A stretch of DNA of 57,963 nucleotides, from contig CALWVB010000012.1 in the NCBI GenBank assembly GCA_944384895.1, positions 1-57,963 on the forward strand, read 5' to 3'. Positions 4,323 to 31,464 of the stretch are shown piece after piece. This DNA comes from an uncultured Clostridia bacterium. Its GTDB lineage: Bacteria > Bacillota > Clostridia > Oscillospirales > Acutalibacteraceae. The notes below the pieces were generated by a model, which was not told the origin of the DNA, searched no databases, and saw nothing but the letters and a program-made list of their open reading frames with translations. Within the stretch, counting starts at the first letter, position 1; each line of letters opens with the position of its first letter. The position numbers and the translations under genes are program-made.

Positions 4323-5703
4323 TATGGCTCTTAAAAAAACTCCTATGCCTGAACAACAGCCCAGTATAAGAAATAAAAATTTTTCTGAGGTTGCTACAGG
4401 TTATACAAAAGAAATGGCTGTTGAAGAAGCTAAACGCTGTCTTAATTGTAAACATAAACCATGTGTAACAGGATGTCCGGTTTCTGTTAGAATACCAGAA
4501 TTTATAAAAGCTGTTGCCCAGGAAGATTTTGCTTTAGCTTATAAAATTATAAAATCTACTAATTCTTTGCCTGCTGTATGTGGCAGAGTATGTCCTCAGG
4601 AAACACAATGTGAATCAAAATGCGTTCGAGGCATAAAAGGCGAACCTGTAGCTATTGGACGGTTAGAACGCTTTGTTGCTGACTGGGCTATGGAGAATAT
4701 TGAAAAGAAAACAGAAAAAGTTAAATCAAATGGACATAAAGTTGCTATAATCGGTTCCGGCCCAGCAGGTCTTACATGCGCTGGGGATTTAGCTTCACTT
4801 GGTTATGAAGTAACAGTATTTGAAGCTTTACATACTCCTGGAGGCGTGTTAATGTATGGAATCCCGGAATTCAGGCTTCCTAAAGCCGTTGTACAAGCTG
4901 AAGTAGACGGCCTCCGAGATATGGGTGTTGATATCCAGACTAATATGGTAATTGGTAAAATTCTTACTATTGACGAATTATTTGAAGATGGATATGAAGC
5001 AGTTTTTGTAGGATCCGGAGCAGGACTTCCTAACTTTATGAAAATTGAAGGAGAAAGTTTATTAGGCGTATATTCAGCTAATGAATTTTTAACTCGTATC
5101 AATCTCATGAAAGGTTATAAGGATGAATATGATACGCCTATTAAGAAGGTTAAATCAGTAGCTGTAGTTGGCGGCGGTAATGTTGCTATGGATGCTGCAA
5201 GATGTGCTAAACGTCTTGGTGCTGAAAATGTATATATTGTTTATCGTCGTTCTGAAGCTGAAATGCCTGCACGTTTAGAAGAAATACATCATGCAAAAGA
5301 AGAAGGCATTGAATTTAAACTTCTTACCAATCCTATTAAAATTTTAGGCGATGATAAAGGCTTTGTTAATAAAATAGAATGTGTTGAAATGGAACTTGGC
5401 GAGCCGGATGCATCAGGTAGACGCAGGCCTATTGAAAAGAAAGGTTCCAATTTTACTCTTGACGTTGATTGTGTTGTTATTGCTATAGGTAATTCGCCAA
5501 ATCCTTTAATCAGAACAACAACACCTGGTATTGAGGCCAATAAACGCGGCTGTTTAATTGTAGATGAAGATTCCCTTAAAACTACACGCAACGCTGTTTA
5601 TGCCGGTGGTGATGTTGTAACTGGTGCTGCTACTGTTATTCTAGCTATGGGTGCTGGTAAACAAGCGGCTAAATCTATTGATGAATATATAAAATCTAAA
5701 TAG
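4315..5703 (+). CDS. nfnB: NADPH-dependent glutamate-synthase small-chain homologue (NfnB/GltD-type oxidoreductase)
   Basis: Two Cys clusters (CLNCKHKPCVTGCP, CGRVCPQETQCESKC) and two dinucleotide folds (IIGSGPAGL, VVGGGNVAMD). Start placed at ATG 4315 behind GGAGGTGG; the ORF track begins at 4300. Overlaps the nfnA stop by 8 nt. Confidence 0.8.
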   Translation: MPNMALKKTPMPEQQPSIRNKNFSEVATGYTKEMAVEEAKRCLNCKHKPCVTGCPVSVRIPEFIKAVAQEDFALAYKIIKSTNSLPAVCGRVCPQETQCESKCVRGIKGEPVAIGRLERFVADWAMENIEKKTEKVKSNGHKVAIIGSGPAGLTCAGDLASLGYEVTVFEALHTPGGVLMYGIPEFRLPKAVVQAEVDGLRDMGVDIQTNMVIGKILTIDELFEDGYEAVFVGSGAGLPNFMKIEGESLLGVYSANEFLTRINLMKGYKDEYDTPIKKVKSVAVVGGGNVAMDAARCAKRLGAENVYIVYRRSEAEMPARLEEIHHAKEEGIEFKLLTNPIKILGDDKGFVNKIECVEMELGEPDASGRRRPIEKKGSNFTLDVDCVVIAIGNSPNPLIRTTTPGIEANKRGCLIVDEDSLKTTRNAVYAGGDVVTGAATVILAMGAGKQAAKSIDEYIKSK

Positions 5704-5719
5704 ACATTATAAATTTAAT

Positions 5720-6272
5720 AAATAACCACCGGTCAAACGGGTGGTTTGCTCATCCCTATAAGGGGTAGTTTCCGGCCAGCGCCTAAAGACGCTGGCTTTC
5801 ACTTTGTTTAAGCCTATTGCCTTTACCTCATTTGCCGCCCCTTAAATGGCGTTGTATTACTTGCTACCTTTGAAAGGGTCTTCATACTCTCGTACATTCA
5901 ATTTATCGAGTGCTATATCGTGCTTCTCTTGCTCCTTCTATGTATTTCCGTATTGTTGCTTCATTAAGTCCTACTGTACTTACATAGTAAGCCTCTGCCC
6001 TAAAATGTCTGTTTCCGTACTTATACTTTAAATTTTTGTGTTTATCAAATATCATCAATGCACTTTTGCCTTTTAAGTATCCCACAAAACTTGACACACT
6101 TATTTTGGGTGATATACTTAACAATAGATGTGCATGGTCGGGGCATCATATTTCCTTCCAGTATTTCTACTCCTTTGTATTTACACAGTATTCTTATGAT
6201 TACTTGTAAATCTGCTCTATACTGCCCATATATTGTTTTTCTACGGTACTTAGGTATGAAAGCTATGCTATC
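5720..6272 (-). mobile_element. Degenerate IS200/IS605-family element (tnpA remnant plus downstream subterminal hairpins)
   Basis: Y1-transposase homology across three reading frames. Hairpins lie downstream of the tnpA stop at 5775-5796 (GCCAGCG/CGCTGGC) and 5724-5747 (ACCACC/GGTGGT). Confidence 0.7.
5857..6272 (-). pseudogene. tnpA: IS200/IS605 Y1 transposase TnpA, 5'-truncated with at least two frameshifts
   Basis: The minus strand reads DSIAFIPKYRRKTIYGQYRADLQVIIRILCKYKGVEILEGNMMP. A frameshift follows at the G4/C4 run 6140-6143. Next comes DHAHLLLSISPKISVSSFVGYLKGKSALMIFDKHKNLKYKYGNRHF..YYVSTVGLNEATIRKYI, carrying the HUH motif and catalytic Tyr region. A second frameshift lies near 5931-5943, then EQEKHDIALDKLNVREYEDPFKGSK and a stop. 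About 18 N-terminal residues are missing, with a TAG directly upstream of DSIAF. Confidence 0.8.
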
Positions 6273-6605
6273 CTAAATCAAACAATATATAAAAATATGC
6301 ATTTATAATAAAGAAAATATTTTAGGTTATGTTATCGTAAATAAGGGGGCGCCTGCGTGCAACCATATAAAATATGGTTGCCAAATGCAAAATAATTTGA
6401 TAAATAAAGATGATGGATATTTAAGGGAATTAGATTCTCTTTATAACTCAGTATAAATATTTTAGAAATTATTTTGCGTAAAGCGCATCTTTAGATGCGC
6501 TGCGCAGGCGCCCCCAATAAATGGTGCTTTTACATTATCTTTTCGTTTTTATTTTAGCTTTATTATAAATTCTTTATTTTAGATGATTTAAATCATCTTA
6601 GAAAA
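6254..6605 (+). repeat. Extended homology unit, copy 1 of a three-copy intergenic element
   Basis: Aligns by eye with the reverse complement of 15459-15838 on both sides of the core. Left flank: AAATCAAACAATATATAAAAAT...AGGTTAYGTTAYCGTAAA. Right flank: GGTRCTTTTACATTATCTTTTC...TGATTTAAATYATCTTAGAAAA. Confidence 0.75.
6345..6515 (+). ncRNA. Candidate structured core (GC-clamped four-stem fold), copy 1; RNA versus ssDNA function unresolved
   Basis: Outer stem GGGGGCGCCTGCG (6345-6357) pairs with CGCAGGCGCCCCC (6503-6515). Hairpin GCAACCATAT/ATATGGTTGC. Long-range stem GCAAAATAATTT/AAATTATTTTGC. Hairpin GCGCATCT/AGATGCGC. GC-only pairing in an AT-rich intergenic region. Confidence 0.5.
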
Positions 6606-6634
6606 CACTATGTGATACTTACACATCCATTTAA

Positions 6635-6695
6635 CTCACCTTTCTTTTTTGCAATAAGCCTAAATATTTTATTGTATCACGAAGGTGAGTTTTTT
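6635..6695 (+). terminator. Hairpin plus U-tract (long loop), terminator candidate T1
   Basis: CTCACCTT (6635-6642) pairs with AAGGTGAG (6682-6689), followed by TTTTTT. Confidence 0.4.
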
Positions 6696-6714
6696 GATTT
6701 AACGCTTTGTCGCC

Positions 6715-6737
6715 CACCCGCATAGCGGGTGTTTTTT
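6715..6737 (+). terminator. Rho-independent terminator T2
   Basis: CACCCGC-ata-GCGGGTG followed by TTTTTT. Confidence 0.7.
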
Positions 6738-6779
6738 GTTTCGTGCCTTGCGCACTCTACTGTCTAAAGATACTAGTAT

Positions 6780-6815
6780 AAAAAAATCCACTGAATTTTT
6801 CAGTGGATTTTTTTA
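6780..6815. terminator. Bidirectional Rho-independent terminator T3
   Basis: A7-ATCCACTGAA/TTCAGTGGAT-T7. Confidence 0.7.
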
Positions 6816-6897
6816 TTATTCTTTTTTTAGATTGTCCTCAGTAATTGTAATTTTGACATTGATTAATGCATAACATTTATTGGGACGGTGATATAAA

Positions 6898-7734
6898 ATG
6901 AATAATGAAATTGAAAGACCATATAGAACATCAGCTAATCACAGAATGAACAGGCAAAAAAAGCCTGAAGATAAGAAAAATGAACGTTTGCCATTATATG
7001 TACAACTAATTGTTTGTACTGTTATAATATCTGCTGCTTTAATATTTAGATTTGCTGATACCGGAAGCTTTGAATATATGCGCGAGCAATATACGGATGC
7101 AATGTCACAACAGATTGATTTATTAAAATTTGATGCAATAGAAACATTTTTTTCAACAAATGAGAATACGGTAGCTGCCAGTTCATCAGGAACAGCAAAT
7201 ATTAAAAATGGAGTAGAAGCAGTAAGACCAGGAAATGATAAAAGCAATTTAGCTTTAGCTATGACAAGCCAATCCAGTTCACAGATAAGTTCAGGTGCTT
7301 CAAGTGAAATGGTATCATCACAGGAAAATAAGATTGTATTTCAACCGCCTGTAGAAGATGCTGTTATTACATCTGCATATGGTTTGCGTGAAATGGATGG
7401 GCAATCTGATTTCCATAAAGGTATGGATTTTGCAGTACCATTTGGGACGCCTATAACTGCTGTTATGGCAGGAACAGTTATAGAAACAGGTGAATCAAAT
7501 AGTTATGGCAATTATATAGTTGTTGAACATGAAAATGGTATAAAGACGAGATATGCTCATTGCAGTTCTATACAGGCTTCTGAAAATGATAAAGTTACCG
7601 ATCAGGATGTTATAGCTTTTGCCGGTTCATCCGGAGATTCTACTGGACCTCATGTACATCTTGAAGTAGAGATAGACGGAGCTACAGTTGATCCGGAAGA
7701 ATTTTTCGATAAAGCATCACTTAAATATAATTAA
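6898..7734 (+). CDS. M23 family metallopeptidase with N-terminal TM anchor (SpoIVFA-like)
   Basis: LytM/M23 motifs HKGMDF (HxxxD) and GPHVHLEV (HxH). Single TM helix LYVQLIVCTVIISAALIF. Sits immediately upstream of an M50 site-2 protease, as in spoIVFA-spoIVFB operons. Confidence 0.7.
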   Translation: MNNEIERPYRTSANHRMNRQKKPEDKKNERLPLYVQLIVCTVIISAALIFRFADTGSFEYMREQYTDAMSQQIDLLKFDAIETFFSTNENTVAASSSGTANIKNGVEAVRPGNDKSNLALAMTSQSSSQISSGASSEMVSSQENKIVFQPPVEDAVITSAYGLREMDGQSDFHKGMDFAVPFGTPITAVMAGTVIETGESNSYGNYIVVEHENGIKTRYAHCSSIQASENDKVTDQDVIAFAGSSGDSTGPHVHLEVEIDGATVDPEEFFDKASLKYN

Positions 7735-13985: not shown

Positions 13986-15251
13986 ATGGATATTTTAATG
14001 ATAGGCAGCGGCGGCCGTGAACATGCTCTCATTAGGCAGTTAAATAAAAGCGCTAAGGTTAATAAGATATATTGTGCTCCAGGTAATGGTGGAATATCAA
14101 GAGAAGCAGAATGTTTTAATGTAAGCGCTACAGATATCCCAGGCGTTGTACAGCTTGCTAAACAATTAAAGCCTGATATGGTTTTTGTTGCTATGGATGA
14201 TCCTTTAGTTGCAGGTATGGTTGATGAATTAAATAAAGCTGGTTTTAGAGCATTTGGACCGGATAAAAAAGCCGCTATAATTGAAGGAAGTAAAGTTTTT
14301 TCTAAAAATCTTATGAAAAAATATAATATTCCAACAGCGGGATATGATGTATTTGATAATGCCCAAGATGCATTAAATTTTATAGAAAAACAGAATAAAT
14401 ATCCTACTGTTATTAAAGCTGACGGTCTTGCATTAGGTAAAGGAGTAATTATTGCAGAAAATTATGATATGGCTAAAGATGCTGTAAAATCCATTATGGA
14501 AGATAAAATCTTTGGCCAGTCAGGCAATAAAGTAGTAGTAGAAGAATTTATAGAAGGTCCTGAAGTGTCTGTACTTTCCTTCTGTGACGGTAAAACTGTT
14601 GTGCCTATGGTATCTTCAAAAGATCATAAACGTGCTTATGACGGCAATAAAGGACCAAATACAGGCGGTATGGGTACAGTAAGTCCTAATCCATATTATG
14701 ATGGCCAGATGGCTAAACGCTGTATGGATGAAATATTTATTCCAACAGTTAAGGCTATGGCTAATGAAGGACGTCCGTTTAAAGGTTGTCTTTATTTTGG
14801 TCTTATGCTTACAAAAGACGGTCCAAAAGTAATCGAATATAACTGTCGGTTTGGGGATCCAGAAGCTCAGGTTGTGTTACCACGATTAAAAACAGATATT
14901 ATTGATATTCTTAATGCAGTCATAGATGAACGTTTGGACGAAATTAATATTGAGTGGTCGGATGAAGCATGTGCCTGCGTTGTTATGGCATCCGGTGGTT
15001 ACCCTAAATCATATAAGAAAGGTATAGAAATTACTGGTCTTAATGATGATGGACAGATTGAAGGCGCTATAGTTTATCATGCTGGAACAGCATATAAAGA
15101 CGGTAAATTTTATACTAACGGCGGTAGGGTATTAGGTATTACAGCTACAGGAAAAACTCTTGATGATGCGCTTGATAAAGCATATGGAGCTGTTAAACGT
15201 ATACATTTTGATGGAAATGAATATCGTACTGATATAGGTAAAATAAAATAG
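13986..15251 (+). CDS. purD: Phosphoribosylamine-glycine ligase
   Basis: GSGGREHAL N-terminus and ATP-grasp core (EEFIEGPEVSV, EYNCRFGDPE). Confidence 0.92.
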   Translation: MDILMIGSGGREHALIRQLNKSAKVNKIYCAPGNGGISREAECFNVSATDIPGVVQLAKQLKPDMVFVAMDDPLVAGMVDELNKAGFRAFGPDKKAAIIEGSKVFSKNLMKKYNIPTAGYDVFDNAQDALNFIEKQNKYPTVIKADGLALGKGVIIAENYDMAKDAVKSIMEDKIFGQSGNKVVVEEFIEGPEVSVLSFCDGKTVVPMVSSKDHKRAYDGNKGPNTGGMGTVSPNPYYDGQMAKRCMDEIFIPTVKAMANEGRPFKGCLYFGLMLTKDGPKVIEYNCRFGDPEAQVVLPRLKTDIIDILNAVIDERLDEINIEWSDEACACVVMASGGYPKSYKKGIEITGLNDDGQIEGAIVYHAGTAYKDGKFYTNGGRVLGITATGKTLDDALDKAYGAVKRIHFDGNEYRTDIGKIK

Positions 15252-15297
15252 AAAGATTATATTCAGTAACGTTTAAAGCTAACGTTTAAGAAAAAAA

Positions 15298-15387
15298 GAG
15301 GGGACACCCGCGGGCGGCTATTTAGCCGCCCCTGCATTTGCAGGGAATGCATCTTTTGAGATGCATTCCGCGGGCGTCCCTCCCTCT
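15298..15387. other. GC-rich four-way-junction palindrome cluster (outer stem enclosing three perfect hairpins)
   Basis: GAGGGGACACCCGCGG pairs with CCGCGGGCGTCCCTCCCTC. The stem encloses GCGGCTA/TAGCCGC, CCCTGCA/TGCAGGG and GAATGCATCT/AGATGCATTC with no linkers. A7 lies upstream on + (U7 on the minus strand). Confidence 0.6.
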
Positions 15388-15458
15388 TTATCTCAGGTAC
15401 ATTTTTATAGCTCTTTAACATAGTACTACCCGTTTATATAGATAAAATATTTATTCAC

Positions 15459-15838
15459 TTTTCTAAGATAATTTAAATCACTCAAAACAAAAGAATAAAT
15501 AATAAACTAAGATAAAAAATGAAAAGATAATGTAAAAGTACCGATTATGGAGGCGCCTGCGCAGCGCATCTAAAGATGCGCTTTACGCAAAATAATTTCT
15601 TAAATACTAAGGCTGAGTTAAAAAGAGAAACTAGTATTATCTTAAATGCTCATCATATTTATATAGAAAATTATTTTGCATTTGGCAACCATATGAAATA
15701 TGGTTGCACGCAGGCGCCCCCTTTTTTTACGGTAACGTAACCTGAAATGTTTTCTTTAATATATATTGCAATTTTTACTTTCATTTTTATATATTGTTTG
15801 ATTTGAGATAATATAGCTTTAAGTATTCTTCATACGTT
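15459..15838 (-). repeat. Extended homology unit, copy 2 (inverted relative to copy 1)
   Basis: The reverse complement aligns with 6254-6605, including both flanks of the core. It retains the GTATGAA..AGCTAT segment that in copy 1 overlaps the 5' edge of the tnpA remnant, but has no transposase ORF. Confidence 0.75.
15549..15721 (-). ncRNA. Candidate structured core, copy 2
   Basis: The same four paired regions as copy 1 have identical stem sequences, apart from one A/C mismatch in the outer stem (GGAGG versus CCCCC). Hairpin loops and the ~65-nt interior differ. Confidence 0.5.
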
Positions 15839-15852
15839 AAAAATATAAAAAT

Positions 15853-15904
15853 AAAAAAATCAATCCCTTAAGATTAATTAATTTTTGAGGGATTGATTTT
15901 TTTA
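15853..15904. terminator. Bidirectional Rho-independent terminator
   Basis: A7-ATCAATCCCT...AGGGATTGAT-T7. Confidence 0.65.
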
Positions 15905-21483: not shown

Positions 21484-22365
21484 TTGCGTATTAATATTAC
21501 AGCGCCTGCAAAAATTAATTTAGCTCTTGATATATTAGGTAAACGACCTGATGGATATCATGTGGTAAATATGGTTATGCAGTCTGTTGATTTATGTGAT
21601 ACTGTAATTTTAACTAAGACAGATAGTGATGGAATAACATTAACATGTAAGAATCCTAATGTTCCTTTAAATAATACTAATATAGCTTATCGAGCCGCTG
21701 ATAAATTTTTTGAATATACGGGTATTAAAGACAGAAATATTAATATAAAAATCCGCAAAAAAATCCCTATAGCAGCGGGATTGGCCGGAGGCAGCTCTGA
21801 CGGCGCTGCCGTACTTATTGGATTAAATAAGTTATATTCAGCAAGCCTTACTAATGAACAGCTATGTTCAATTGGCGGGGAAATTGGTGCAGATATCCCA
21901 TTTTGTATTATGGGAGGAACCATGTTAGCAGAAGGGACCGGTACAATATTATCTCCATTGCCGGACATGCCGGAATGTTATTTCTTAATAGTTAAACCAC
22001 CTCTATCTGTTTCTACTGCACAAGCATATAGTATGTTTGATGAATATGGAAAAAGAAGTGAAAAAAGCATAGATTGTATTATTGATGCAATATGTGCAAA
22101 AAATTTACAAATAGTTTCTGAAAATCTTTTTAATGTATTTGAAAGTATACTGGATATTATTGAAGTTGATATAAAACCTATAAAAGATATTATGTCTTAT
22201 TACGACGCATATGGTTCATGTATGAGTGGAAGCGGACCTTCTGTATTTGCTGTATTTTCATCTAAAAATAAAGCTGAAAAATGTGCAGAAAAAATAAAAG
22301 ATGAGATTCTTGGAGCCGAAGTCTTTATTGCTTCACCAATTAATCATGGTTGTATAATTGATTAA
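21484..22365 (+). CDS. ispE: 4-(cytidine 5'-diphospho)-2-C-methyl-D-erythritol kinase
   Basis: APAKINLALDI N-terminus and GHMP motif PIAAGLAGGSSDGAA. TTG start 9 nt after GGAGG. Confidence 0.88.
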   Translation: MRINITAPAKINLALDILGKRPDGYHVVNMVMQSVDLCDTVILTKTDSDGITLTCKNPNVPLNNTNIAYRAADKFFEYTGIKDRNINIKIRKKIPIAAGLAGGSSDGAAVLIGLNKLYSASLTNEQLCSIGGEIGADIPFCIMGGTMLAEGTGTILSPLPDMPECYFLIVKPPLSVSTAQAYSMFDEYGKRSEKSIDCIIDAICAKNLQIVSENLFNVFESILDIIEVDIKPIKDIMSYYDAYGSCMSGSGPSVFAVFSSKNKAEKCAEKIKDEILGAEVFIASPINHGCIID

Positions 22366-22371
22366 AAACAG

Positions 22372-22411
22372 AAAAAATGCTCTGGAGGAAAATCCTCCAG
22401 AGCATTTTTAT
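22372..22411. terminator. Bidirectional terminator between convergent ispE and the GH51 gene
   Basis: ATGCTCTGGAGG-aaaat-CCTCCAGAGCAT, flanked by A and T tracts. Confidence 0.8.
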
Positions 22412-22425
22412 TTGTTGGAAATTTA

Positions 22426-25400
22426 TTATTGAGCGATTATTGATACTGTAAGTTCAGCAGTATCTTCAATCCAATTTCCATTTGCATCCTTAGCTTTAAC
22501 AGTTATTTTTCTATTATTGCCTTTGGATCCAAACTGTGTTTCAAATACCCAGATAACTTGATCTCCGTCTTCAGTTTGACTTATAAGCGCTTTGCCTATG
22601 TCTTTACCAGATTCATTTGCAAAAGCTAATGCAGAAACACCTTTTGATGTTTTTACTTCAACTTTGAAATTGGTATTAACAACAGCTGTTTTCTGAGAAG
22701 ATACACTGATAATATCAGCTTGAACGTTTTCATCTGCAATATATGCATCAGAAGCGACTACTTTAATTGGAAGATCAGCAACCTTATCAACTGAATCACC
22801 TACAGCAGCATAGATACCAAATACTCTGTCGCCTTTAGTACCAATTGACATATTTAATGTCCATAATTTTGTACCATTGACATTTTCTTTAACATCAATT
22901 ACAGATACACCCATAAGAGCATCATATTCATTTAAGAAGGTAAGTGATTCAACATTTGCTTCAGTTAAGATAACAACTTCAAAGTTGTCATTAGCTTTAA
23001 CTGTATAGTTTTCAGTTTTACCATCTACACTGATAATATTAAAATACTGTTCAAATACTTTAATATTAAATGTTGCTGAAGTTTCTTCAAATCCATTACC
23101 ATAATCTGCAAGGATAGTGAATGTCCTATCACCTTTAGTAGCAGCAGATATGTATAATGTCCATGTTAATGTACCATCATCATTTGTTACTACATCAGCA
23201 ACAGTTGTACCCATATTCAAGTCAAATTCATTATCGACAGTAAGATCTTTTACTAATGCATCAGTCTTTACAACAACTTTGATTGGAGTATTGATTATTG
23301 CAATAGCATCTTCAGTTACATCATTAACACTAATTACTTCTACTGACTTAGTTACAGGTTGTACATTAATAGCAGCATAGATTGCATCAATAGCATTAGC
23401 TATTTCAGTAGGAGTTGCATTTGGATTTACATAAACCATTAAACCTTCGTTTACAGCAGCAACAAGATTATTAATTTCAGTTTCTGACCAGTCAGTTGTA
23501 TCAACATTATTAGCTTCAGTAATAGCTGCAAGGAGATCAGCTTTTGTAGCAGCAGGTTTACTTGTTTCGCCATAAACAATCCATTCAACTATACCGACAG
23601 CAGATGCTGTTGGAGAAGCTTCAATAACAAGTTGAAGTTCTGTTGTTTCAACTTCATCAAATTTAGCATAGTTAAATCCATTGCCAGAACCTGCTTTTGC
23701 ATTTGCTCTGTCAATAAGAGTACAATTTGGAACAGGTACTAATTCTCCATCTGCATTTCTATAATAAAGTGTAGCGCTTTCTGGAGGTTCAACACCTGCA
23801 GATGAACCATAGTTACCATCGCAATGCCAGAGAATATCAATACTATCAACTTTAACAGGAGTATCCCATGTATAAGTTACAGTATGAGGTCCCTTTTCAG
23901 GCCATGTACCCCATGCATCATTTTCAGCAACCTGACGGTATGTTGTAGTTGGATCTGATTGTTTACCATCGTTAATAGCTGCTTCTGAATTCCAGGTTGT
24001 GCAATAAGATGTATCAACTGAAGCATCAAGAGCTACGTTATCTTTAAGAACTTCTGGACGTGTAGCAATTTCTGCACCGTAAACGATCCATTCAACTATA
24101 CCAACAGCTGCAGCTCCTGGAGCTGGTTCAATAACAAGCTGGAGTTCTGTTGTTGTTATTTCATCAAACTGTGCATAATTAAATCCATTACCAGAACCTG
24201 CTTTTGCATTGCTATTACCTATAAGTGAACAATTAGGTACTTCTACTAATTCACCATCAGCATCTTTATAATAAAGTGTAGCGCTTTCTGGAGGCTGTAC
24301 ACCGCCGGATCCGCCATAATCAACATCGCAATGCCAAAGGATATCAATACCGTCTATCTTAACAGGATTTTCCCATGTATAAGTTACAGTATGAGGACCT
24401 TCTTCAGGCCATGTACCCCATGCGTCACCTTCACTAGCTTGACGGTAGGTAATTGTTGGATCTGATTGTTTACCATCGTTAATAGCTGCTTCTGAATTCC
24501 AGGTTGTGCAGTAAGTTGTATCTACAGTGGCTTTAAGAGCTACATTTCCTTTAAGCTCTTCCGGACGTAAAGAACTATTAACTACAGTGATTGTAAATGT
24601 ATCAGAATATGTTCCATTACTTACTGTGTAAGTTAAGGATCCAAGTTCCTGTGGAGCTGGGAAGCTTACTGTAAATGTACGCTGTCCACGAGCATCTTTA
24701 TATGTAGATGTTACTTCTACAGGTTCATCATTACATGTTACTATGATTTCTTCAACTGAATCGTCAGTTTTTACTGTAAATTCAACTGTTTCACCAGTAG
24801 CATAAGATTTTTCATTAGCCTGAAGAACAAATTTTAATACAAGATTTGTTACAGCTTTTGTTACATCATTTGCAGCAGCGTCGATCATATCCTGATCAGC
24901 TGATGTAAGTTCAGCTTCTTTTGCTATAATAGCTTCAGCAGCGCTTATAGCTTCTTGAAGAGCATTATAGCTCTTTTCTGTATAATCGTCTGGTTCATAT
25001 GCTTTTGCAGAATTAACAGCACCTTTAATACCTGTCATATTTGCAGGTGTAATTATTTCTGTATGTTCGTCGCTTGTAAATTTAACAGCAGTTACAGAAT
25101 ATTTTGGTACTGTAATTGTTACAGAATCACCACAGTTTTCAATAACTTCTGTTGTTGGAGCTGGAGTTTGATTAAGATCTGTTACTGTATTAATACCATA
25201 GAGGTTATCACTTGTGAGAGTGCTTATAACAGCATCACGTTGTGTAACAGCTGGGAGATTTACTGCATTTACAGTAATAGATAATGGATAATCATTTCTA
25301 TTTACATATTTAACGTATACTTCGCCTGTAGAAGTATCTACAGAAGCTGAATAAGCAGTAAGTTTATCAGAAGCTGCTTCGGATTTAATAAGTTTATCGC

Positions 25401-27870
25401 CAACATTTGTAGCAAATAACTGCTGTACATAATAGTTAGCGGTTAAAGCAGTTGTTCTGCCTGTGAACCAGATAAGGTCTGATTCTAACCAACGTGTACC
25501 GTTTGTTACGTCGGCTTTACACATAAACGGTGCATAGGAAGCCATTTCGATTGTATCAGAATTGCGTTCGATACTTGTCATATAAATAGCTTCACAAAGT
25601 GCTGAATTATGTGTATTACCAGGGTCTTTATTTGCTGCATATTCACCGATGAATACTTTAGCGCCGTTATTCTTATAGATAGAAGTATTATCATAACGAT
25701 TTGTGCTATCAAGCATCCACTGTGATGTTGTATAATAATGTTCGTCAACTATAGTATCTGTATATTTTTCGTTAACTTCCTGCCATGCTCTGTCATAATC
25801 GCTGCCGTTTGCATATGGGCCAGCAGTTGTTATAACAATAATTTCTGGATATTCTTCTTTAACTGCTTCATACATCAAAGCAAAACGATCCCAATATACA
25901 TCGCCCCAGTTTTCATTACCAAGGGAAATATACTTGAGGTTGAATGGTTCTGGATGTCCCATTTCAGCACGGAGAGCGCCCCATTCAGTTGTTACATCGC
26001 CATTACAGAATTCAATGAAATCAAGAGCGTCATCAATAAATTCCGGCATTTCTGTAACAAGATCAGCTGTATAAATTGGGCTGCGGAACTGACAGCTTAA
26101 ACCTGCGTTGAGTACAGGAACAGCCTCGGCTCCGAGTTCTTCACACATAAGCATATATTCATAATAACCAATGTCAAAGCTCATGAGATAATCCCAATAT
26201 CCAGCCATCTGAACTCTTTCTTCACGTGGTCCAACTGTATTTTTCCAGTTGTACATTCTTTCTCTTGTTCCGATACCTTCAGATGCGCATCCGCCTGGGA
26301 AACGTAAGAATTTTGGATGGAGGTTTTCCATAGCGGTCATTAATTCTTTATTAAGGCCGCCTGCTGCGCCATCATGCCACATTTCAGAATCTTCTGGATG
26401 GAGATTCCAGAAATCTACATAGAATGTACCAGCAGCATCACCAATTATAGCTAATCTTGAATCAACTGATTCTAAAGCTGTAAGTGATCCTGTATATTTT
26501 GTCCAATCGGTTGTTATTGCTGGAATTTCAACGATATTGGAATTGAGAACTCCATCATTTGTCTCAAGGAATACACGGATAGTTCCGTCATATTCACCCT
26601 TAAGATAACCGTCAAAATTGTATGTAATACCACCATTGATTGGCATGGATGCTCTGGTGTTATTATAGGTATTGGTACCAAAACCGTTATTAGCAATACC
26701 ATAACCTAAACCAGTACCTGCATCTTCAATTGTAATAACAGCACATTTTGTATTGTTTTCATTCATTGGATTTTCAAGATCGATTTGTGCTGAGCCGGAA
26801 GCTCCGTCTTTAGCAATCTTGCTCCAGTTGTCAAGTGTATTGACATTATTGGAGAATGAAAAACGTCCATTATTCATACCATGTGCTTCAAATGAACCGT
26901 TTTCAATAAGTTCAGCATTGATACCACCGTCAAGAGCATGGTTAATATCTTCAAAGAATACGCCGTAAAGTGTTTCAGGGATTGCTTGATATGCTTGACT
27001 TACATCAAGATCAAGTGTAGCATCTGCATAACCTTCAGCTCTTACTGTACATACGATATCTTTTGAAGAAGTTACTCCAGCGCCGTTATCAACTGTTACT
27101 GTAAGAGTTACAGTTGCATCTTCCTCACCTTGTGCTGGGCGTGTAATTGTAGCTATATTGCCATCTATTGATATTACATCAGTATTATCAGATGTCCATA
27201 CTACATTATATCCAGCAGTATTTTCTGTAGGAAGTGTTATAGATGGAGAAATGATTGAATCGCTTCCAGGAATAGAGAAACTGCCAGCAACAGCATCTAC
27301 TATACTCTGGATATCATTTGAATAAACTTCCCATTCCTGAATACCAGTACCTGCGGAAGCTGGGTTGCATGTGAGAGATAAACGAAGACGAGTCGTTGTT
27401 ATCTCATCAAAAGTTGCCATATTAAGCGGAGAGCTTGCTGAGTTAACATTAACATCATAAGCTATTCCAGAATAATTTGGAACTTCTACCATAGACTCTC
27501 CATTATAATAGGTAAGCGTCGTGCCTATAGGAGCTTGAACGCCGCCTAAAGATGAACCAGAAGCCTGATCAGCGTACCAACGTACACCCATACTACTGAT
27601 TGTTACTGGGGAATCCCATGTGAGTTCTACATAGAGACCAGATGTAGTAGGCCATGTGCCCCATACACTTGCCTGATTTCCATCAAATAATTTGCCGTCG
27701 TTTAGGGCTTCAATTCTGTTATGGCTTGCTGTTCCTCTTCCTGAAGGAGTAGCCATTTCAGCAACATTTATGCCCTCATCTGCAAAAGCCGTCATAGCTG
27801 CAAATGGTACGACACTTATCACTAATAGAAGAGACAAGATAATCGAAAGGAGCCGTTTTGATGCTTTCAT
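22426..27870 (-). CDS. Secreted multidomain glycoside hydrolase, GH51-type alpha-L-arabinofuranosidase with F5/8-type-C (CBM32-like) and Ig-like repeats
   Basis: Signal peptide ending AFA|DEG. CBM4/9-like ENGSFE segment. Catalytic-core motifs LRFPGGCASEG, ISLGNENWG (acid/base Glu) and VFIGEYA (nucleophile Glu). Three F5/8-type-C modules, helical FIVAR-like linkers and three ~95-aa C-terminal repeats. No LPXTG or other anchor recognised. Confidence 0.75.
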   Translation of the reverse strand: MKASKRLLSIILSLLLVISVVPFAAMTAFADEGINVAEMATPSGRGTASHNRIEALNDGKLFDGNQASVWGTWPTTSGLYVELTWDSPVTISSMGVRWYADQASGSSLGGVQAPIGTTLTYYNGESMVEVPNYSGIAYDVNVNSASSPLNMATFDEITTTRLRLSLTCNPASAGTGIQEWEVYSNDIQSIVDAVAGSFSIPGSDSIISPSITLPTENTAGYNVVWTSDNTDVISIDGNIATITRPAQGEEDATVTLTVTVDNGAGVTSSKDIVCTVRAEGYADATLDLDVSQAYQAIPETLYGVFFEDINHALDGGINAELIENGSFEAHGMNNGRFSFSNNVNTLDNWSKIAKDGASGSAQIDLENPMNENNTKCAVITIEDAGTGLGYGIANNGFGTNTYNNTRASMPINGGITYNFDGYLKGEYDGTIRVFLETNDGVLNSNIVEIPAITTDWTKYTGSLTALESVDSRLAIIGDAAGTFYVDFWNLHPEDSEMWHDGAAGGLNKELMTAMENLHPKFLRFPGGCASEGIGTRERMYNWKNTVGPREERVQMAGYWDYLMSFDIGYYEYMLMCEELGAEAVPVLNAGLSCQFRSPIYTADLVTEMPEFIDDALDFIEFCNGDVTTEWGALRAEMGHPEPFNLKYISLGNENWGDVYWDRFALMYEAVKEEYPEIIVITTAGPYANGSDYDRAWQEVNEKYTDTIVDEHYYTTSQWMLDSTNRYDNTSIYKNNGAKVFIGEYAANKDPGNTHNSALCEAIYMTSIERNSDTIEMASYAPFMCKADVTNGTRWLESDLIWFTGRTTALTANYYVQQLFATNVGDKLIKSEAASDKLTAYSASVDTSTGEVYVKYVNRNDYPLSITVNAVNLPAVTQRDAVISTLTSDNLYGINTVTDLNQTPAPTTEVIENCGDSVTITVPKYSVTAVKFTSDEHTEIITPANMTGIKGAVNSAKAYEPDDYTEKSYNALQEAISAAEAIIAKEAELTSADQDMIDAAANDVTKAVTNLVLKFVLQANEKSYATGETVEFTVKTDDSVEEIIVTCNDEPVEVTSTYKDARGQRTFTVSFPAPQELGSLTYTVSNGTYSDTFTITVVNSSLRPEELKGNVALKATVDTTYCTTWNSEAAINDGKQSDPTITYRQASEGDAWGTWPEEGPHTVTYTWENPVKIDGIDILWHCDVDYGGSGGVQPPESATLYYKDADGELVEVPNCSLIGNSNAKAGSGNGFNYAQFDEITTTELQLVIEPAPGAAAVGIVEWIVYGAEIATRPEVLKDNVALDASVDTSYCTTWNSEAAINDGKQSDPTTTYRQVAENDAWGTWPEKGPHTVTYTWDTPVKVDSIDILWHCDGNYGSSAGVEPPESATLYYRNADGELVPVPNCTLIDRANAKAGSGNGFNYAKFDEVETTELQLVIEASPTASAVGIVEWIVYGETSKPAATKADLLAAITEANNVDTTDWSETEINNLVAAVNEGLMVYVNPNATPTEIANAIDAIYAAINVQPVTKSVEVISVNDVTEDAIAIINTPIKVVVKTDALVKDLTVDNEFDLNMGTTVADVVTNDDGTLTWTLYISAATKGDRTFTILADYGNGFEETSATFNIKVFEQYFNIISVDGKTENYTVKANDNFEVVILTEANVESLTFLNEYDALMGVSVIDVKENVNGTKLWTLNMSIGTKGDRVFGIYAAVGDSVDKVADLPIKVVASDAYIADENVQADIISVSSQKTAVVNTNFKVEVKTSKGVSALAFANESGKDIGKALISQTEDGDQVIWVFETQFGSKGNNRKITVKAKDANGNWIEDTAELTVSIIAQ
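23565..24578 (-). repeat. Intragenic tandem duplication (2 x 507 bp) encoding two F5/8-type-C modules
   Basis: aaatccattgccagaacctgcttttgc at 23674 recurs as aaatccattaccagaacctgcttttgc at 24181, an offset of 507 nt (169 codons). The protein units begin RPEELKGNVALKATVD and RPEVLKDNVALDASVD. Confidence 0.85.
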
Positions 27871-28226
27871 ACTATTTATACACCTTTCTTCTTTTAGATT
27901 CAGAATTCCAAATGAATTGTTAGAATTATTTCAATAAAACCATTCGGTAACAAATCATTAACAATTCTGTTGTGTTATATAATACCATATTTACCTAAAA
28001 ATTGGGATATAAAACCACCAACAATTAAAAAAACAAACAAATTACATATAAAATCTAAACATTTTCCACATAATGTGATTTTGTAGTTAATTTATATAAA
28101 ATTATCGCCTATATTAAAATATTTGTATAACTATTATGGTTTTTTATTGATTAAATCTTTATAATATCGCAATTTGTATTTTTGTGGTATAATTTATATA
28201 ATAACAATTGGAGGATTGATTTTTAT

Positions 28227-29462: not shown

Positions 29463-29630
29463 ATACAAATTTTTATTAAATATACGCTCATTATATTTTA
29501 GGTATATTATTATGTAATTTTTTATTTTTATTTATGTTTAGTACGCAGTATATCATTAAATTTGTCAAATACCTATATAGAAAAAAGCTTTGGAAAATCA
29601 TTATAATCATCATAAGTTAATTTTTTAATA

Positions 29631-29659
29631 TTGACAATATTATCTTTAAATGATATCAT
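29631..29659 (+). promoter_or_regulatory. Near-consensus sigma-70 promoter candidate
   Basis: TTGACA (29631-29636), 17-nt spacer, TATCAT (29654-29659). Confidence 0.45.
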
Positions 29660-29660
29660 A

Positions 29661-29700
29661 CCCCTAACTAAACAAAATATTCATTTTGTTTAGTTAGGGG
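29661..29700. promoter_or_regulatory. Perfect 17-6-17 inverted repeat (candidate recombinase/operator site or hairpin)
   Basis: CCCCTAACTAAACAAAA-TATTCA-TTTTGTTTAGTTAGGGG. It starts 2 nt after the -10 box and lies about 100 nt upstream of the recombinase start. Confidence 0.5.
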
Positions 29701-29801
29701 TTATATAATATATTGCTTATATCATATATAAATATGGAATTTATTATCCTCTATCATAATCTTAAAAATCTTAAAACAAAATTCTGGTGATAAAGTTGAA
29801 A

Positions 29802-30794: not shown

Positions 30795-30805
30795 TTTTAC
30801 TTAAT

Positions 30806-30830
30806 AAAAAGGATTTCCTTTTATTTTTTA
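30806..30830 (+). terminator. Weak terminator after the recombinase gene
   Basis: AAAAGGA-tt-TCCTTTT followed by ATTTTTT. Confidence 0.35.
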
Positions 30831-31067
30831 TTATATTATTATAATATCTATTTTTTGACAAACCTAACAAATGGATTCCACAAACATTTTATATAGAAAA
30901 ACACTCGCAGGTAGCGTGGTCAAAAAGAAGGCCTATGCCGATGATGGAGAAAAAACTCCGTTTATTATAAAATAAACTTGCGGTTCGGCTAAAGTAAGTG
31001 ACAACAAAAGGAGAATAATCAAAAGAATTCCCCAAATAGTTTGTTACATTCACAAAGCAATATAGCG

Positions 31068-31335
31068 ACAGATAAGGTAAATGTACAGCAAAAGCGGGGC
31101 GCCTGCCCAGCGCATCATTTAGATGCGCTGGAACGCAAAATAATTTTTAAATATGAAAGCTGAGTAAAAATAAGGAACTAGTATTTCCCTAAAAATCAGC
31201 GTCTTTAATTTTATAAATTATTTTGCGTAAAGCAGACATATGAAACATGTCTGTGCGCAGGCGCCCCGCTTTAATGTATCGTAGCCCTGATAGGCTTTAT
31301 TATAAATATCGTGAATATTTTTAATAATATAATAA
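31068..31335 (-). repeat. Extended homology unit, copy 3 (divergent)
   Basis: The flanks AGATAAGGTAAATGTAC and CTTTATTATAAAT..ATATTTTTA align with the copy 1 and 2 flanks. Homology is shorter than between copies 1 and 2. Confidence 0.6.
31094..31269 (-). ncRNA. Candidate structured core, copy 3
   Basis: GCGGGGCGCCTGC pairs with GCAGGCGCCCCGC. Hairpin CCAGCGCATC/GATGCGCTGG. Stem CGCAAAATAATTT/AAATTATTTTGCG. The hairpin CAGACAT/ATGTCTG replaces CAACCAT/ATGGTTG through two compensatory pair changes. Confidence 0.5.
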
Positions 31336-31404
31336 TCTCATGCGCCTGTCAGCTCGTATCAACGTGATGTGACACGGTTGCTGATATATAGAGCTTGTCC
31401 TTAT

Positions 31405-31445
31405 AATAAATATCCCCCCGCTTTGCGGGGGAATATTTATTATTT
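31405..31445. terminator. Terminator downstream of the 5S-like carboxyltransferase gene
   Basis: CCCCCGC-ttt-GCGGGGG with flanking AT-rich tracts. Confidence 0.6.
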
Positions 31446-31464
31446 GAGAATATTTAATATTTCA

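What the first reader, a model, noticed from the sequence alone, without database searches (positions are those of the whole stretch)
6254..6737. Copy 1 of a three-copy GC-clamped multi-stem element: candidate undescribed structured RNA or IS200-derived module
The nfnB/spoIVFA-like intergenic region is AT-rich, yet 6345-6515 folds on paper into a closed four-stem architecture. The 13-bp outer stem is GGGGGCGCCTGCG/CGCAGGCGCCCCC. Inside it are hairpin GCAACCATAT/ATATGGTTGC, a 12-bp long-range stem GCAAAATAATTT/AAATTATTTTGC enclosing about 65 nt, and hairpin GCGCATCT/AGATGCGC. The same architecture recurs at 15549-15721 and 31094-31269 on the opposite strand. Homology to copy 2 extends about 90 nt on each side, to 6254 and 6605. 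On the + strand the unit is followed by strong terminators (T2 at 6715-6737). The stem of T2 (CACCCGC/GCGGGTG + U6) resembles the outer stem and U7 that close the copy 2 locus. That is consistent with a transcript of roughly 400-480 nt reading + here and - at the other loci, antisense to the adjacent tnpA remnant. I could not match it to any RNA family I know (not a tRNA, tmRNA, riboswitch or CRISPR repeat). Multi-copy near-identity argues for mobility.
Basis: seen in the sequence. Interest (0 to 1): 0.85.

Follow-up and report, generated by a model that had tools for sequence, protein, structure and literature searches.

The report
Abundant palindromic mobile repeat inside IS200
The "structured RNA" is the conserved core of a 343-bp palindromic mobile DNA repeat, present in hundreds of copies in related bacteria, and copy 1 has landed inside an IS200 transposase gene; it is a new, somewhat unusual family of a known kind, not an RNA gene.

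Summary
The architecture is real. Window 6345-6515 folds into a GC-clamped four-helix structure (z about -10 on both strands) and recurs at 15550-15720 and 31096-31267.

It is the core of a 343-bp imperfect palindrome (6261-6603). At least 234 diverged copies occur in 1.09 Mb of related metagenome contigs. Copies are intergenic, lie in either orientation relative to genes, and carry AA on both flanks in one fixed orientation.

Copy 1 sits inside an IS200. Eight of eleven IS200 relics in the related contigs are split at the same nucleotide. Removing the element plus 2 nt restores a canonical 144-aa TnpA.

No Rfam family matches. The helices are 98.8% paired, with 17 doubly changed pairs. However, hairpin loops occur in both orientations, G-U is no commoner than mismatches, and two orthologous copies at 98% identity differ by a double stem change. 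These are marks of DNA template switching, not RNA selection.

Best reading: a new MITE/REP-like mobile DNA family, neither an RNA gene nor IS200-derived. The mobilising enzyme is unknown.

The parts
6261..6603 (+). Copy 1 of the repeat: a 343-bp imperfect palindrome (left arm, four-helix core, right arm)
   Evidence: nhmmer hit covering model positions 2-354. Ends fixed by terminal motifs and by the tnpA junction.
6259..6260 (+). Left flanking AA dinucleotide
   Evidence: AA on the left flank in 17 of 21 well-ended copies and 49 of 75 left-anchored copies, against about 11% expected. TT occurs in only 3 of 75.
6604..6605 (+). Right flanking AA dinucleotide (2-bp duplication or element-borne crossover dinucleotide)
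   Evidence: AA on the right flank in 17 of 21 copies. The filled versus empty tnpA comparison shows element plus 2 extra T/A.
6345..6515 (+). Conserved core: outer GC clamp (6345-6357/6503-6515), hairpin 1 (6359-6381), AT-rich long-range stem (6387-6398/6466-6477), hairpin 2 (6482-6501), unconserved centre (6399-6465)
   Evidence: Folds. RNAalifold consensus on 80 copies. 98.8% of cells paired, 17 of 37 pairs doubly changed. Stems diverge 3-8% against 28% in the arms.
6261..6344 (+). Left arm, partly complementary to the right arm; terminal motif (A/T)GCTATATTATCCTAAATCA
6516..6603 (+). Right arm; terminal motif TGATTTAAATTATCTTAGNN
5716..6260 (-). 3' portion of the interrupted IS200: tnpA from codon F-I-P-K-Y-R-R-K onward (6260 down to 5903, with a frameshift near 6140) and the right end with hairpin 5725-5745
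   Evidence: Pfam Y1_Tnp E = 2e-31. tblastn gives two frames. Right-end comparison among IS200 copies. Coordinates.
6606..6779 (-).
   Evidence: Read from the sequence. The same layout is seen in L119, L123, L048, L022, L041 and L033.
6780..6814 (.). Host bidirectional terminator directly abutting the IS200 left end (not part of the repeat)
   Evidence: Every IS200 copy examined starts just after a terminator T run.
15460..15817 (-). Copy 2 (358 bp), flanked by AA/AA in element orientation
31058..31326 (-). Copy 3, with shorter and more diverged arms; present at the orthologous site of contig L119
15291..15389 (.). Short-core relative of the same superfamily (GC clamp plus three hairpins, a 'cloverleaf') lying next to copy 2

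Best explanation
The feature is copy 1 of a non-autonomous, interspersed, imperfectly palindromic DNA repeat. It belongs to the MITE/REP-like kind. Each copy is about 345 bp: two partly complementary arms of about 85 bp around a strongly conserved 170-bp core.

Shown:
- Hundreds of diverged copies lie in intergenic DNA of a low-GC sporulating Firmicute lineage.
- They lie in either orientation relative to genes.
- Each is bounded by the termini (A/T)GCTATATT...ATCTTAGNN and by AA on both sides in one fixed orientation.
- Copy 1 interrupts an IS200 transposase gene at a position hit repeatedly in independent IS200 lineages.
- Removing the element plus 2 nt restores the gene.

Inferred:
- The element moves, or moved, in trans by a recombinase not encoded in it.
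- Insertion is orientation-specific at an AA dinucleotide. It either duplicates 2 bp or exchanges strands over a 2-bp core, as IS607 or Tn4451-type serine recombinases do. An HUH-type single-strand reaction is the alternative.
- The conserved four-helix core is the part that must be kept for recognition, probably as folded or cruciform DNA. The arms bring the two ends together.
- The perfect stems and the 'compensatory' changes are largely produced by replication template switching within hairpins, on top of purifying selection on stem sequence.

The element is not an RNA gene, and it is not a part or a derivative of IS200.
For: Copy number and extent:
- The metagenome scan returned 120 loci.
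- nhmmer finds 234 non-overlapping copies in 1.09 Mb, with clear strand discrimination.
- The unit boundaries follow from the conservation profile and the end motifs.

Junctions:
- AA lies on both flanks, 17 of 21 each, and no longer duplication is found.
- On the left flank AA occurs in 49 of 75 copies and TT in 3 of 75.
- Filled site in L123...CACATCGTGTT[AGCTAAG...ATATAGCA]TTTGCGCC. Empty site in L152...CATATAGTATTTGCACC.

Relation to IS200:
- Y1_Tnp E = 2e-31.
- The split lies at the same nucleotide in the window, L022, L038, L041, L048, L119, L122 and L123.
- The spliced L123 TnpA is 144 aa, with 100% coverage and 80-89% identity to many intact 144-aa TnpA proteins.
- The interrupted copies are polyphyletic.
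- The tnpA-borne elements are not a clade among all copies.

Other support:
- Context: 172 of 178 copies are intergenic. Orientation relative to co-directional genes is 40 to 39.
- No known RNA: Rfam has no gathering-level hit and only chance-level matches in sensitive mode. ARAGORN finds none.
- Both strands fold about equally well, and the core is pseudo-twofold symmetric.
- DNA-level signatures. Hairpin loops occur as reverse-complement pairs: GAA 39 / TTC 33, TTT 34 / AAA 26, CAAAG 43 / CTTTG 18. In the conserved stems, G-U cells (13) are not commoner than non-pairs (21). The orthologous copies in the window and L119 differ at 98% identity by a paired A>C/T>G change in hairpin 1, and a neighbouring ordinary terminator has a flipped loop.
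- Template switching is known to homogenise inverted-repeat arms and invert loops (PMC8794818; abstract of PMC8604942).
Against: - No autonomous element with the same ends and no multi-copy transposase was found in 1.1 Mb of related contigs. Mobility of the free copies is therefore inferred, not seen. Look-ups in other samples found the purD-bofA spacer the same length as in the window, so copy 2 appears to be present, and no empty site for any free copy.
- The core stems are far more conserved than the termini. This is the reverse of a classical DDE-type MITE. It would also fit a host or RNA function for the core.
- The four-helix structure passes every covariation control.
- An asymmetric AA target is atypical for cut-and-paste MITEs.
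Confidence: 0.75

Rival explanations
1. The core is a functional structured RNA. It could be a free small RNA or a cis-acting element in untranslated regions (stabiliser, processing site or terminator), carried around the genome by a mobile repeat.
For: - 98.8% of cells are paired and 17 of 37 pairs have changes on both sides, against 3.9 in shuffles and 2-8 in slid controls.
- RNAalifold recovers the same four helices.
- Fold z-scores are about -10.
- Stems evolve 4-9 times more slowly than arms.
- On the element's minus strand the GC clamp is followed by a T run, which looks like a terminator.
- Related short-core variants keep the clamp-plus-three-hairpins layout with different hairpin sequences.
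Against: - No Rfam match.
- Orientation relative to flanking genes is random, 40 to 39. A directional cis function is therefore not selected.
- Both strands fold.
- Loop sequences are unconserved and present in both orientations.
- G-U pairs are not favoured over mismatches.
- No promoter excess over shuffles was seen around copy 1; conservation of promoters across copies was not tested.
- A double stem change between orthologues at 98% identity, next to a loop flip in an ordinary terminator, shows that the 'covariation' can arise by mutation mechanism alone (PMC8794818).
Confidence: 0.12
2. The element is an IS200/IS605-type derivative. It would be either a part of IS200 (leader or end) or a palindrome-associated non-autonomous element mobilised by the IS200 Y1 (HUH) transposase on single-stranded DNA. 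The hairpins would serve as the transposase's recognition structures.
For: - IS200 is the only transposon gene family found near the copies.
- Insertion is orientation-specific and leaves at most 2 nt.
- Stem sequences are conserved as expected for protein-bound hairpins.
- An uninterrupted tnpA (L033) is the closest relative of the window's interrupted tnpA, which allows seamless excision.
- The tnpA target is a small hairpin, CAC-ATA-GTG, followed by TT. IS200 itself inserts after a terminator hairpin plus T run.
Against: - The element lies inside the coding sequence, and its removal restores a canonical TnpA. It is therefore not a part of IS200.
- Its termini and hairpins show no similarity to the IS200 left and right ends.
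- The conserved hairpins lie 85-140 nt from the ends, and the two differ from each other. IS200/IS605 ends carry similar subterminal hairpins within about 10-20 nt of the cleavage sites (established knowledge of IS608 and ISDra2).
- There is no orientation bias relative to gene, and hence replication, direction. IS200/IS605 elements show such a bias.
- IS200's own target here is a long T run, not AA/TT alone.
- Loci with intact IS200 from other organisms carry no copy.
Confidence: 0.12
3. The copies are now immobile and maintained by the host as REP-like DNA sites (protein-binding or cruciform-forming). This would be a domesticated relic of an ancient burst. It is not exclusive of a mobile origin.
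For: - Nearest-neighbour divergence is about 28-30% in the arms and centre, while core stems stay 92-97% identical. This holds even in copies not selected by the search pattern.
- No transposase partner was found.
- Copy 3 is kept at the orthologous site in L119.
- The purD-bofA spacer that holds copy 2 keeps the same length in every sampled strain whose contig spans it.
Against: - Insertions or excisions at the tnpA site are recurrent and include a tnpA whose exons are still intact (L123), so activity was recent.
- The copies inside tnpA cannot serve a host site function there.
- No binding protein is known.
Confidence: 0.25

Closest known systems
Bacterial MITEs such as Neisseria Correia elements (CREE), pneumococcal RUP and Bacillus cereus bcr1
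   Same: Short, non-coding and intergenic, with hundreds of dispersed copies. Inverted-repeat ends, a very short flanking repeat, and the whole element folds into a long hairpin.
   Different: - The flanking dinucleotide is the asymmetric AA, always in one orientation, not a palindromic TA.
- The internal core is far more conserved than the termini.
- No parental insertion sequence with the same ends was found.
- It inserts repeatedly at one codon of IS200 tnpA.
REP / REPIN elements mobilised by RAYT (Y1, IS200-like) transposases (PMC2817692, PMC3116915, listed)
   Same: Hyper-abundant extragenic GC-rich palindromes, conserved hairpin stems, and an association with a Y1-transposase gene family.
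   Different: - REPs are 20-40 nt single hairpins with a GTAG or CGTC tag, and REPINs are doublets of about 100 nt. Here the unit is 345 bp with a four-helix core and no tag.
- RAYT genes are single-copy and flanked by REPs. Here a canonical multi-copy IS200 tnpA is interrupted by the element.
IS607-family and Tn4451/Tn5397-type serine-recombinase transposition (PMC6188088; Tn4451 from my own knowledge)
   Same: The same dinucleotide at both junctions, orientation fixed by a non-palindromic dinucleotide, almost no other target preference, and seamless in principle.
   Different: - IS607 has no inverted-repeat ends and uses GG. Tn4451 uses GA.
- No serine transposase was found with the element.
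- The only serine recombinase seen nearby is a cotJC intervening-element type, and its homologues' loci lack the element.
IS200/IS605-derived palindrome-associated elements (PATEs) and IStrons
   Same: Non-autonomous partners of Y1 transposons. Like an IStron, the element sits inside a gene, and its removal restores the reading frame.
   Different: - The ends are unrelated to IS200 ends.
- No group I intron signal was found.
- More than 95% of copies are intergenic.
T-shaped inverted terminal repeats of parvoviruses (AAV ITR) - a structural analogy only
   Same: A GC-rich outer stem enclosing small internal palindromes, with sequence variants that are reverse complements of each other.
   Different: - This is an internal chromosomal repeat, not a genome terminus.
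- Only the small loops flip, not the order of the internal hairpins.
- No Rep protein is present.

Membership tests
Any curated RNA family (Rfam 15) | Match to a covariance model at or above its gathering score | tested here: not met
   No match in the whole window at gathering thresholds. Only weak chance hits (miRNA, snoRNA, rRNA fragments) in the sensitive scans of 5700-7000 and 15200-15900.
tRNA / tmRNA | ARAGORN detection | tested here: not met
   No genes in the window
Independent structured ncRNA gene | Base pairs kept through compensatory changes | tested here: inconclusive
   Formally met: 17 of 37 pairs, with 0 of 500 shuffles reaching the observed value. It is confounded by loop flips, by subfamily structure and by a double change between orthologues at 98% identity.
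Independent structured ncRNA gene | Strand-specific signature (G-U tolerated on one strand; fixed promoter and terminator) | tested here: not met
   In the conserved stems, G-U is about as rare as A-C or other non-pairs. Both strands fold. There is no promoter excess over shuffles. T2 belongs to IS200.
MITE | Short (<600 bp) and non-coding | tested here: met
   343-358 bp. No ORF of 30 aa or more lies within 6277-6603; one 72-aa ORF ending at 6276 overlaps the first 16 bp.
MITE | Terminal inverted repeats | tested here: met
   The termini xGCTA...TAAATCAC and GTGATTTA...TAGCx are imperfect inverted repeats, and the whole unit is self-complementary at 62%.
MITE | Target-site duplication of fixed length | tested here: inconclusive
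   AA lies on both sides, and the filled site has 2 extra nt compared with the empty site. Because the target is always AA, a duplication cannot be told from an element-borne crossover dinucleotide.
MITE | Many dispersed copies | tested here: met
   234 copies in 1.09 Mb of contigs, 172 of 178 intergenic
MITE | Autonomous insertion sequence with the same ends | tested here: not met
   There is no multi-copy transposase ORF family. Solo ends occur only at contig edges or at the L122 tnpA junction. Only about 1.1 Mb was sampled.
IS200/IS605 part or derivative (PATE) | Ends identical or similar to the left and right ends of a parental IS200/IS605, with subterminal hairpins | tested here: not met
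   The IS200 left and right ends of eight copies were read and compared by eye, with no similarity to the element's arms or hairpins. No formal alignment score was computed.
IS200/IS605 part or derivative (PATE) | Orientation bias relative to replication/gene direction | tested here: not met
   40 same to 39 opposite between co-directional genes. Gene direction was used as a proxy for replication direction.
REP / REPIN-RAYT | 20-40 nt palindrome with GTAG or CGTC tag; RAYT gene flanked by REPs | tested here: not met
   No tag lies next to either hairpin in the consensus. The Y1 gene is a canonical IS200 tnpA interrupted by the element.
Group I intron / IStron | Group I catalytic core; located in a gene and removed to restore it | tested here: not met
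   No intron model hit at E <= 10. Removal restores tnpA at the DNA level, but most copies are intergenic. RNA splicing is not testable here.
Serine-recombinase-type (IS607/Tn4451-like) element | Identical non-palindromic dinucleotide at both junctions and little other target preference | tested here: met
   Compared with the GG rule of IS607 (PMC6188088).
Serine-recombinase-type (IS607/Tn4451-like) element | Serine transposase partner | tested here: not met
   A single large serine recombinase was found, in L044. Its homologues sit in cotJC intervening elements, and their loci lack the repeat.

The most novel reading that the evidence does not exclude
The repeat could be a new type of mobile element whose recognition module is a folded four-way-junction ('cloverleaf') DNA. 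It would insert strand-specifically and almost seamlessly at AA. It would also home repeatedly into one codon (YHIV|F) of IS200 transposase genes, acting as a parasite of a parasite that switches IS200 off, possibly reversibly. A further possibility is that the conserved core has been taken over by the host as a functional DNA or RNA module at hundreds of loci.
Probability: 0.2. Interest if true: 0.7.

Novelty: new variant of a known kind. Interest (0 to 1): 0.4.

Why it matters
Practical value. The result removes a false candidate for a new structured RNA. It also gives a worked example in which textbook covariation statistics (98.8% pairing, 17 compensated pairs) can be produced in a DNA palindrome by replication template switching. 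That is a caution for RNA-discovery pipelines.

Biological value. It defines a very abundant repeat family in an uncultured low-GC sporulating Firmicute lineage, one that breaks public assemblies at its copies. Three features are not explained by classical MITE biology:
- the internal four-helix core is more conserved than the ends;
- the AA junction is orientation-specific;
- insertion recurs at one nucleotide of IS200 tnpA in independent IS200 lineages.

If the last two reflect a new transposition chemistry, or targeted silencing of IS200, they would interest people who work on mobile DNA.

Tried and rejected
Pattern specificity was too low for a 596-Gb collection.
2. BLASTN of the unit against the plasmid and phage collections, and a viral-contig pattern scan, found nothing.
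3. Nested-insertion idea: the 171-bp core as an independent GGGG-ended MITE with a 5-bp duplication. The A-rich 5-mers beside the core are direct rather than inverted. However, no core-only copies exist; the three candidates still have degenerate arms. Left open, not supported.
4. Group I intron or IStron, and translational bypass of the insert in tnpA. There was no intron model hit. Stop codons follow 4-5 codons after the junction, and take-off and landing codons do not match. Rejected.
5. Large serine recombinase next to the L044 copy as the mobiliser. It belongs to a cotJC intervening element, and its homologues' loci have no repeat. Rejected.
6. An autonomous partner, sought through multi-copy ORF clustering and solo terminal motifs. 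None was found.
7. Single origin of the tnpA::element composite followed by spread. Rejected as the only explanation, because the interrupted tnpA copies are closer to intact or uninterrupted ones than to each other, and the tnpA-borne elements are not a clade.
8. Empty sites for free copies, sought through contigs from other samples. One protein was not on record. The other contigs either span the same-length purD-bofA spacer or break at the repeat.
9. Literature search by sequence strings and by topic gave no description of this element.
Full report
1. THE OBSERVATION

ViennaRNA returns that architecture as the minimum-free-energy and centroid structure: -81 kcal/mol, z = -10.2. The complementary strand folds nearly as well: -70 kcal/mol, z = -9.7.

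The repeat finder and pattern searches confirm two more copies on the opposite strand, with cores at 15550-15720 and 31096-31267. Pairwise BLAST gives 6259-6605 against 15820-15459 at 83% identity, and 6290-6540 against 31323-31070 at 70%. The copies are diverged, not near-identical.

Each half reads GGCGCCTGC, then its own hairpin, then GCAAAATAATTT, so the same pattern matches both strands of every copy. The symmetry extends weakly (62%) over the whole 330-nt unit.

2. KNOWN RNA FAMILIES

Rfam 15 gives no match in the whole window at gathering thresholds. Sensitive scans of copies 1 and 2 give only chance-level miRNA and snoRNA hits. ARAGORN finds no tRNA or tmRNA.

3. HOW MANY COPIES, AND WHERE

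A first scan of species-representative genomes was too unspecific and returned only chance hits. Plasmid, phage and viral collections have nothing.

A stricter three-block pattern scanned against metagenome contigs returned 120 loci. Nearly all come from one project (JABLTR01), and many contigs hold 2-4 copies. A profile HMM built from 120 full-length copies finds 234 non-overlapping copies in 1.09 Mb. The median score difference between strands is 136 bits, so orientation is well defined. Mean pairwise identity is 68% and mean identity to the consensus is 77%.

One of these contigs, L119, is syntenic with window 21641-31457 at 95% identity. The source is therefore a close relative of the window's organism.

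Public assemblies of the window's own organism repeatedly break at the copies. Several independent contigs of about 8.9 kb end at the edge of copy 2, and their length matches a start at copy 1.

4. ANATOMY OF THE UNIT

Conservation starts sharply at (A/T)GCTATATTATCCTAAATCA and ends at TGATTTAAATTATCTTAGNN. In the window this is:
- copy 1: 6261-6603
- copy 2: 15460-15817
- copy 3: 31058-31326, with short, diverged arms

The two termini are imperfect inverted repeats.

Directly outside both ends there is AA. It occurs in 17 of 21 well-ended copies on each side, and no longer direct repeat is present. In a larger set anchored on the left end, AA occurs in 49 of 75 and TT in 3 of 75, in DNA that is 33% A. 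The dinucleotide is therefore orientation-specific. Apart from a weak G at position -5, no further target preference is visible.

Of 178 near-full copies, 172 are intergenic. Between co-directional genes, 40 copies point with the genes and 39 against them.

5. COPY 1 LIES INSIDE AN IS200

The 'tnpA remnant' is a Y1_Tnp gene (Pfam E = 2e-31). Reading the minus strand shows that the element splits it.

- Exon 1 (ATG at 6626-6624, M-C-K-Y-H-I-V) lies to the right of the element.
- The gene resumes at 6260 with F-I-P-K-Y-R-R-K.
- Further right are the hallmarks of an IS200 left end: a stem that sequesters the ribosome-binding site (6635-6644 with 6681-6691) and a left-end hairpin at 6715-6731.
- The insertion sequence starts at about 6779, directly after a host terminator at 6780-6814.
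- The right end, with its hairpin at 5725-5745, stops at about 5716, 13 nt after the nfnB-like gene.

IS200 plus insert is 1064 bp. Without the 343 + 2 bp it is 719 bp, the canonical IS200 size (from my knowledge of the family). The proposed 400-480 nt transcript ending at T2 therefore joined parts of two different elements.

6. THE SAME tnpA SITE IS HIT REPEATEDLY

tblastn finds eleven tnpA relics in the related contigs.

- Eight in all, counting the window's own copy, are split at the same nucleotide: the window, L022, L038, L041, L048, L119, L123 and L122.
- One (L033) is uninterrupted.
- Two are too fragmentary to tell.

In the six junction pairs read in full, removing the element plus 2 nt restores the frame GTG TT|T GCN. 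In L123 both exons are free of stops. The spliced product is 144 aa and matches thousands of intact 144-aa TnpA proteins over 100% of its length, at up to 89% identity.

The DNA of one such intact gene (L152) serves as an empty site. It reads ...CATATAGTATTTGCACC, against ...CACATCGTGTT[element]TTTGCGCC in L123.

The interrupted genes are not one lineage:
- L123 is 89% identical to an intact database protein, and L122 is 74% identical to one.
- The window's copy is closest (61%) to the uninterrupted L033.
- Interrupted copies are only 36-68% identical to each other.

The elements inside tnpA are not a clade either. Each has a closer free relative, and they lie nearer the family consensus (0.71-0.86, six of the seven at 0.80 or more) than the average copy (0.77). 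The simplest reading is repeated insertion, or seamless excision, at one hot spot. Why this site is preferred is unexplained. It is a 3-bp hairpin, CAC-ATA-GTG, followed by TT.

The composite can also move or be lost as a whole. L119 carries a 1.19-kb IS200::element at a site that is empty in the window, at 22369.

7. IS THE STRUCTURE AN RNA STRUCTURE?

On 80 cores RNAalifold recovers the outer clamp, hairpin 1, the long-range stem and hairpin 2, and nothing in the centre. For those 37 pairs:
- 98.8% of cells are paired, against 95.8% in shuffles and 31-53% in slid controls;
- 17 pairs have changes on both sides, against 3.9 in shuffles and 2-8 in slid controls.

Hairpin 1 exists in five perfectly complementary stem variants. 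Between nearest neighbours, stems differ by 3-8% while the arms and centre differ by 27-28%. This holds for copies that were not selected by the search pattern.

Several results argue that this is a property of the DNA:
- (a) Loops occur as reverse-complement pairs in near-equal numbers: GAA 39 / TTC 33, TTT 34 / AAA 26, CAAAG 43 / CTTTG 18. The order of the hairpins never flips (121 of 121), and the centre rarely does (61 forward, 8 reverse).
- (b) In the conserved stems, G-U cells (13) are no commoner than non-pairs (21). G-T and A-C are equally rare.
- (c) Both strands fold.
- (d) There is no orientation bias relative to genes and no promoter excess over shuffles.
- (e) The orthologous copies of the window and L119 are 98% identical, yet they differ by a paired A>C/T>G change in hairpin 1. 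An ordinary terminator 150 nt away has its loop flipped, TTT to AAA.

Template switching during replication is documented to homogenise inverted-repeat arms, to give multi-base 'compensatory' changes and to invert loops (PMC8794818; abstract of PMC8604942).

Template switching keeps complementarity but not sequence. The near-invariance of hairpin 2 and of the clamp therefore still implies purifying selection on the sequence itself. I infer that the selected feature is a recognition structure for whatever moves or uses the element.

8. A WIDER SUPERFAMILY

The related contigs and the window also contain shorter relatives with the same plan:
- a GC clamp (GGGGCGCCCGCG-like) enclosing three hairpins, about 95 nt ('cloverleaf');
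- a form of 125-140 nt in which the middle stem is CCCTGCAAAT...ATTTGCAGGG.

Their hairpins resemble hairpins 1 and 2, and they have similar arm motifs. One sits at window 15291-15389, right next to copy 2. That resemblance is between two GC-rich hairpins and is not homology.

9. HOW IT MOVES

Nothing in 1.1 Mb looks like an autonomous partner. There is no multi-copy transposase ORF, and no gene is flanked by the termini.

IS200 TnpA is the only transposase family present. Against it:
- the element's ends and hairpins do not resemble the IS200 ends;
- the hairpins are far from the ends;
- there is no orientation bias;
- IS200's own target here is a terminator T run;
- loci with intact IS200 from other organisms lack the repeat.

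The fixed, non-palindromic dinucleotide at both junctions, with almost no other target preference, is what IS607 shows with GG, where strands are exchanged over 2 bp (PMC6188088). From my own knowledge, Tn4451 does the same with GA. However, the one serine recombinase nearby belongs to a cotJC intervening element and is unrelated. A cut-and-paste enzyme making a 2-bp duplication remains possible, although an asymmetric target would be unusual.

I rank them as follows: 2-bp exchange by an unidentified recombinase first, HUH (IS200 TnpA) in trans roughly equal to a DDE transposase. None is shown.

10. VERDICT

The finding is a real, conserved, folded element. It is the core of a mobile or formerly mobile palindromic DNA repeat that has inserted into an IS200. 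It is not an RNA gene, and it is not derived from IS200.

It is a new family with three unusual traits: the core is more conserved than the ends, the AA junction is strand-specific, and there is a hot spot in tnpA. I file it as a new variant of the MITE/REP kind and score interest 0.4.

The organism was not identified. The gene content (spoIVFA/spoIVFB-like, bofA) and 33% G+C indicate a low-GC sporulating Firmicute. The study-coded sample names look like gut-microbiome surveys, but that is my reading of the names and was not checked.

Noticed in passing
window 15255-15458 (core 15291-15389): A short-core relative of the repeat lies directly beside copy 2: a GC clamp plus three hairpins in a cloverleaf-like layout, with arm motifs like those of the main family. 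Similar 95-140 nt cores occur in L033, L052, L085, L086, L087, L109, L122 and L133.
   Followed up: partly
window 22369; L119 728-1913: A 1.19-kb IS200 carrying the repeat inside tnpA is present in the 95%-identical syntenic contig L119. It is absent from the window, between a gene end and its terminator, so the window holds the empty site.
   Followed up: yes
window 31417-31434 versus L119 (alignment A2 columns 457-474): An ordinary intrinsic terminator has its loop inverted (TTT versus AAA) between orthologues that are 98% identical. Hairpin 1 of copy 3 shows a paired double change in the same alignment. Hairpin template switching appears to be a general mutation process in this genome.
   Followed up: partly
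window 6780-6814; L119, L123, L048, L022, L041 left ends: Every IS200 copy examined begins immediately after the T run of a rho-independent terminator. This IS200 lineage seems to target 'hairpin plus T run'.
   Followed up: partly
window 6340-6344 and 6516-6520 (and the same positions in about 170 copies): The 5 nt on either side of the GC clamp are A-rich on the same strand (AAAAA and ATAAA). They are direct rather than inverted and form a symmetric internal loop. This could be a scar of an ancient nested insertion of the core into an older palindrome. No core-only copies were found.
   Followed up: partly
window 23570-23869 and 24077-24376: A 300-nt direct repeat (79% identity, spacing 507 nt) lies inside the 1814-aa ORF on the minus strand (22426-27870). 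It is probably a repeated protein domain.
   Followed up: no
L044 10282-11859; L161, L162: A large serine recombinase lies 50 nt from a repeat copy. In its homologues' loci the gene sits in an element that splits cotJC (Mn-catalase fragments on both sides, with cotJA/cotJB downstream). This is a sporulation-gene intervening element.
   Followed up: partly
L002-L005, L138-L146, L168-L175 (contig ends): Independent public assemblies of this organism end at the edges of copies 1 and 2, for example contigs of about 8.9 kb that end at copy 2 and whose length matches a start at copy 1. The repeat fragments short-read assemblies.
   Followed up: partly
window about 6140: Besides the insertion, the window's tnpA carries a frameshift: two tblastn segments lie in different frames and overlap at residues 47-75. 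It is a dead copy.
   Followed up: yes
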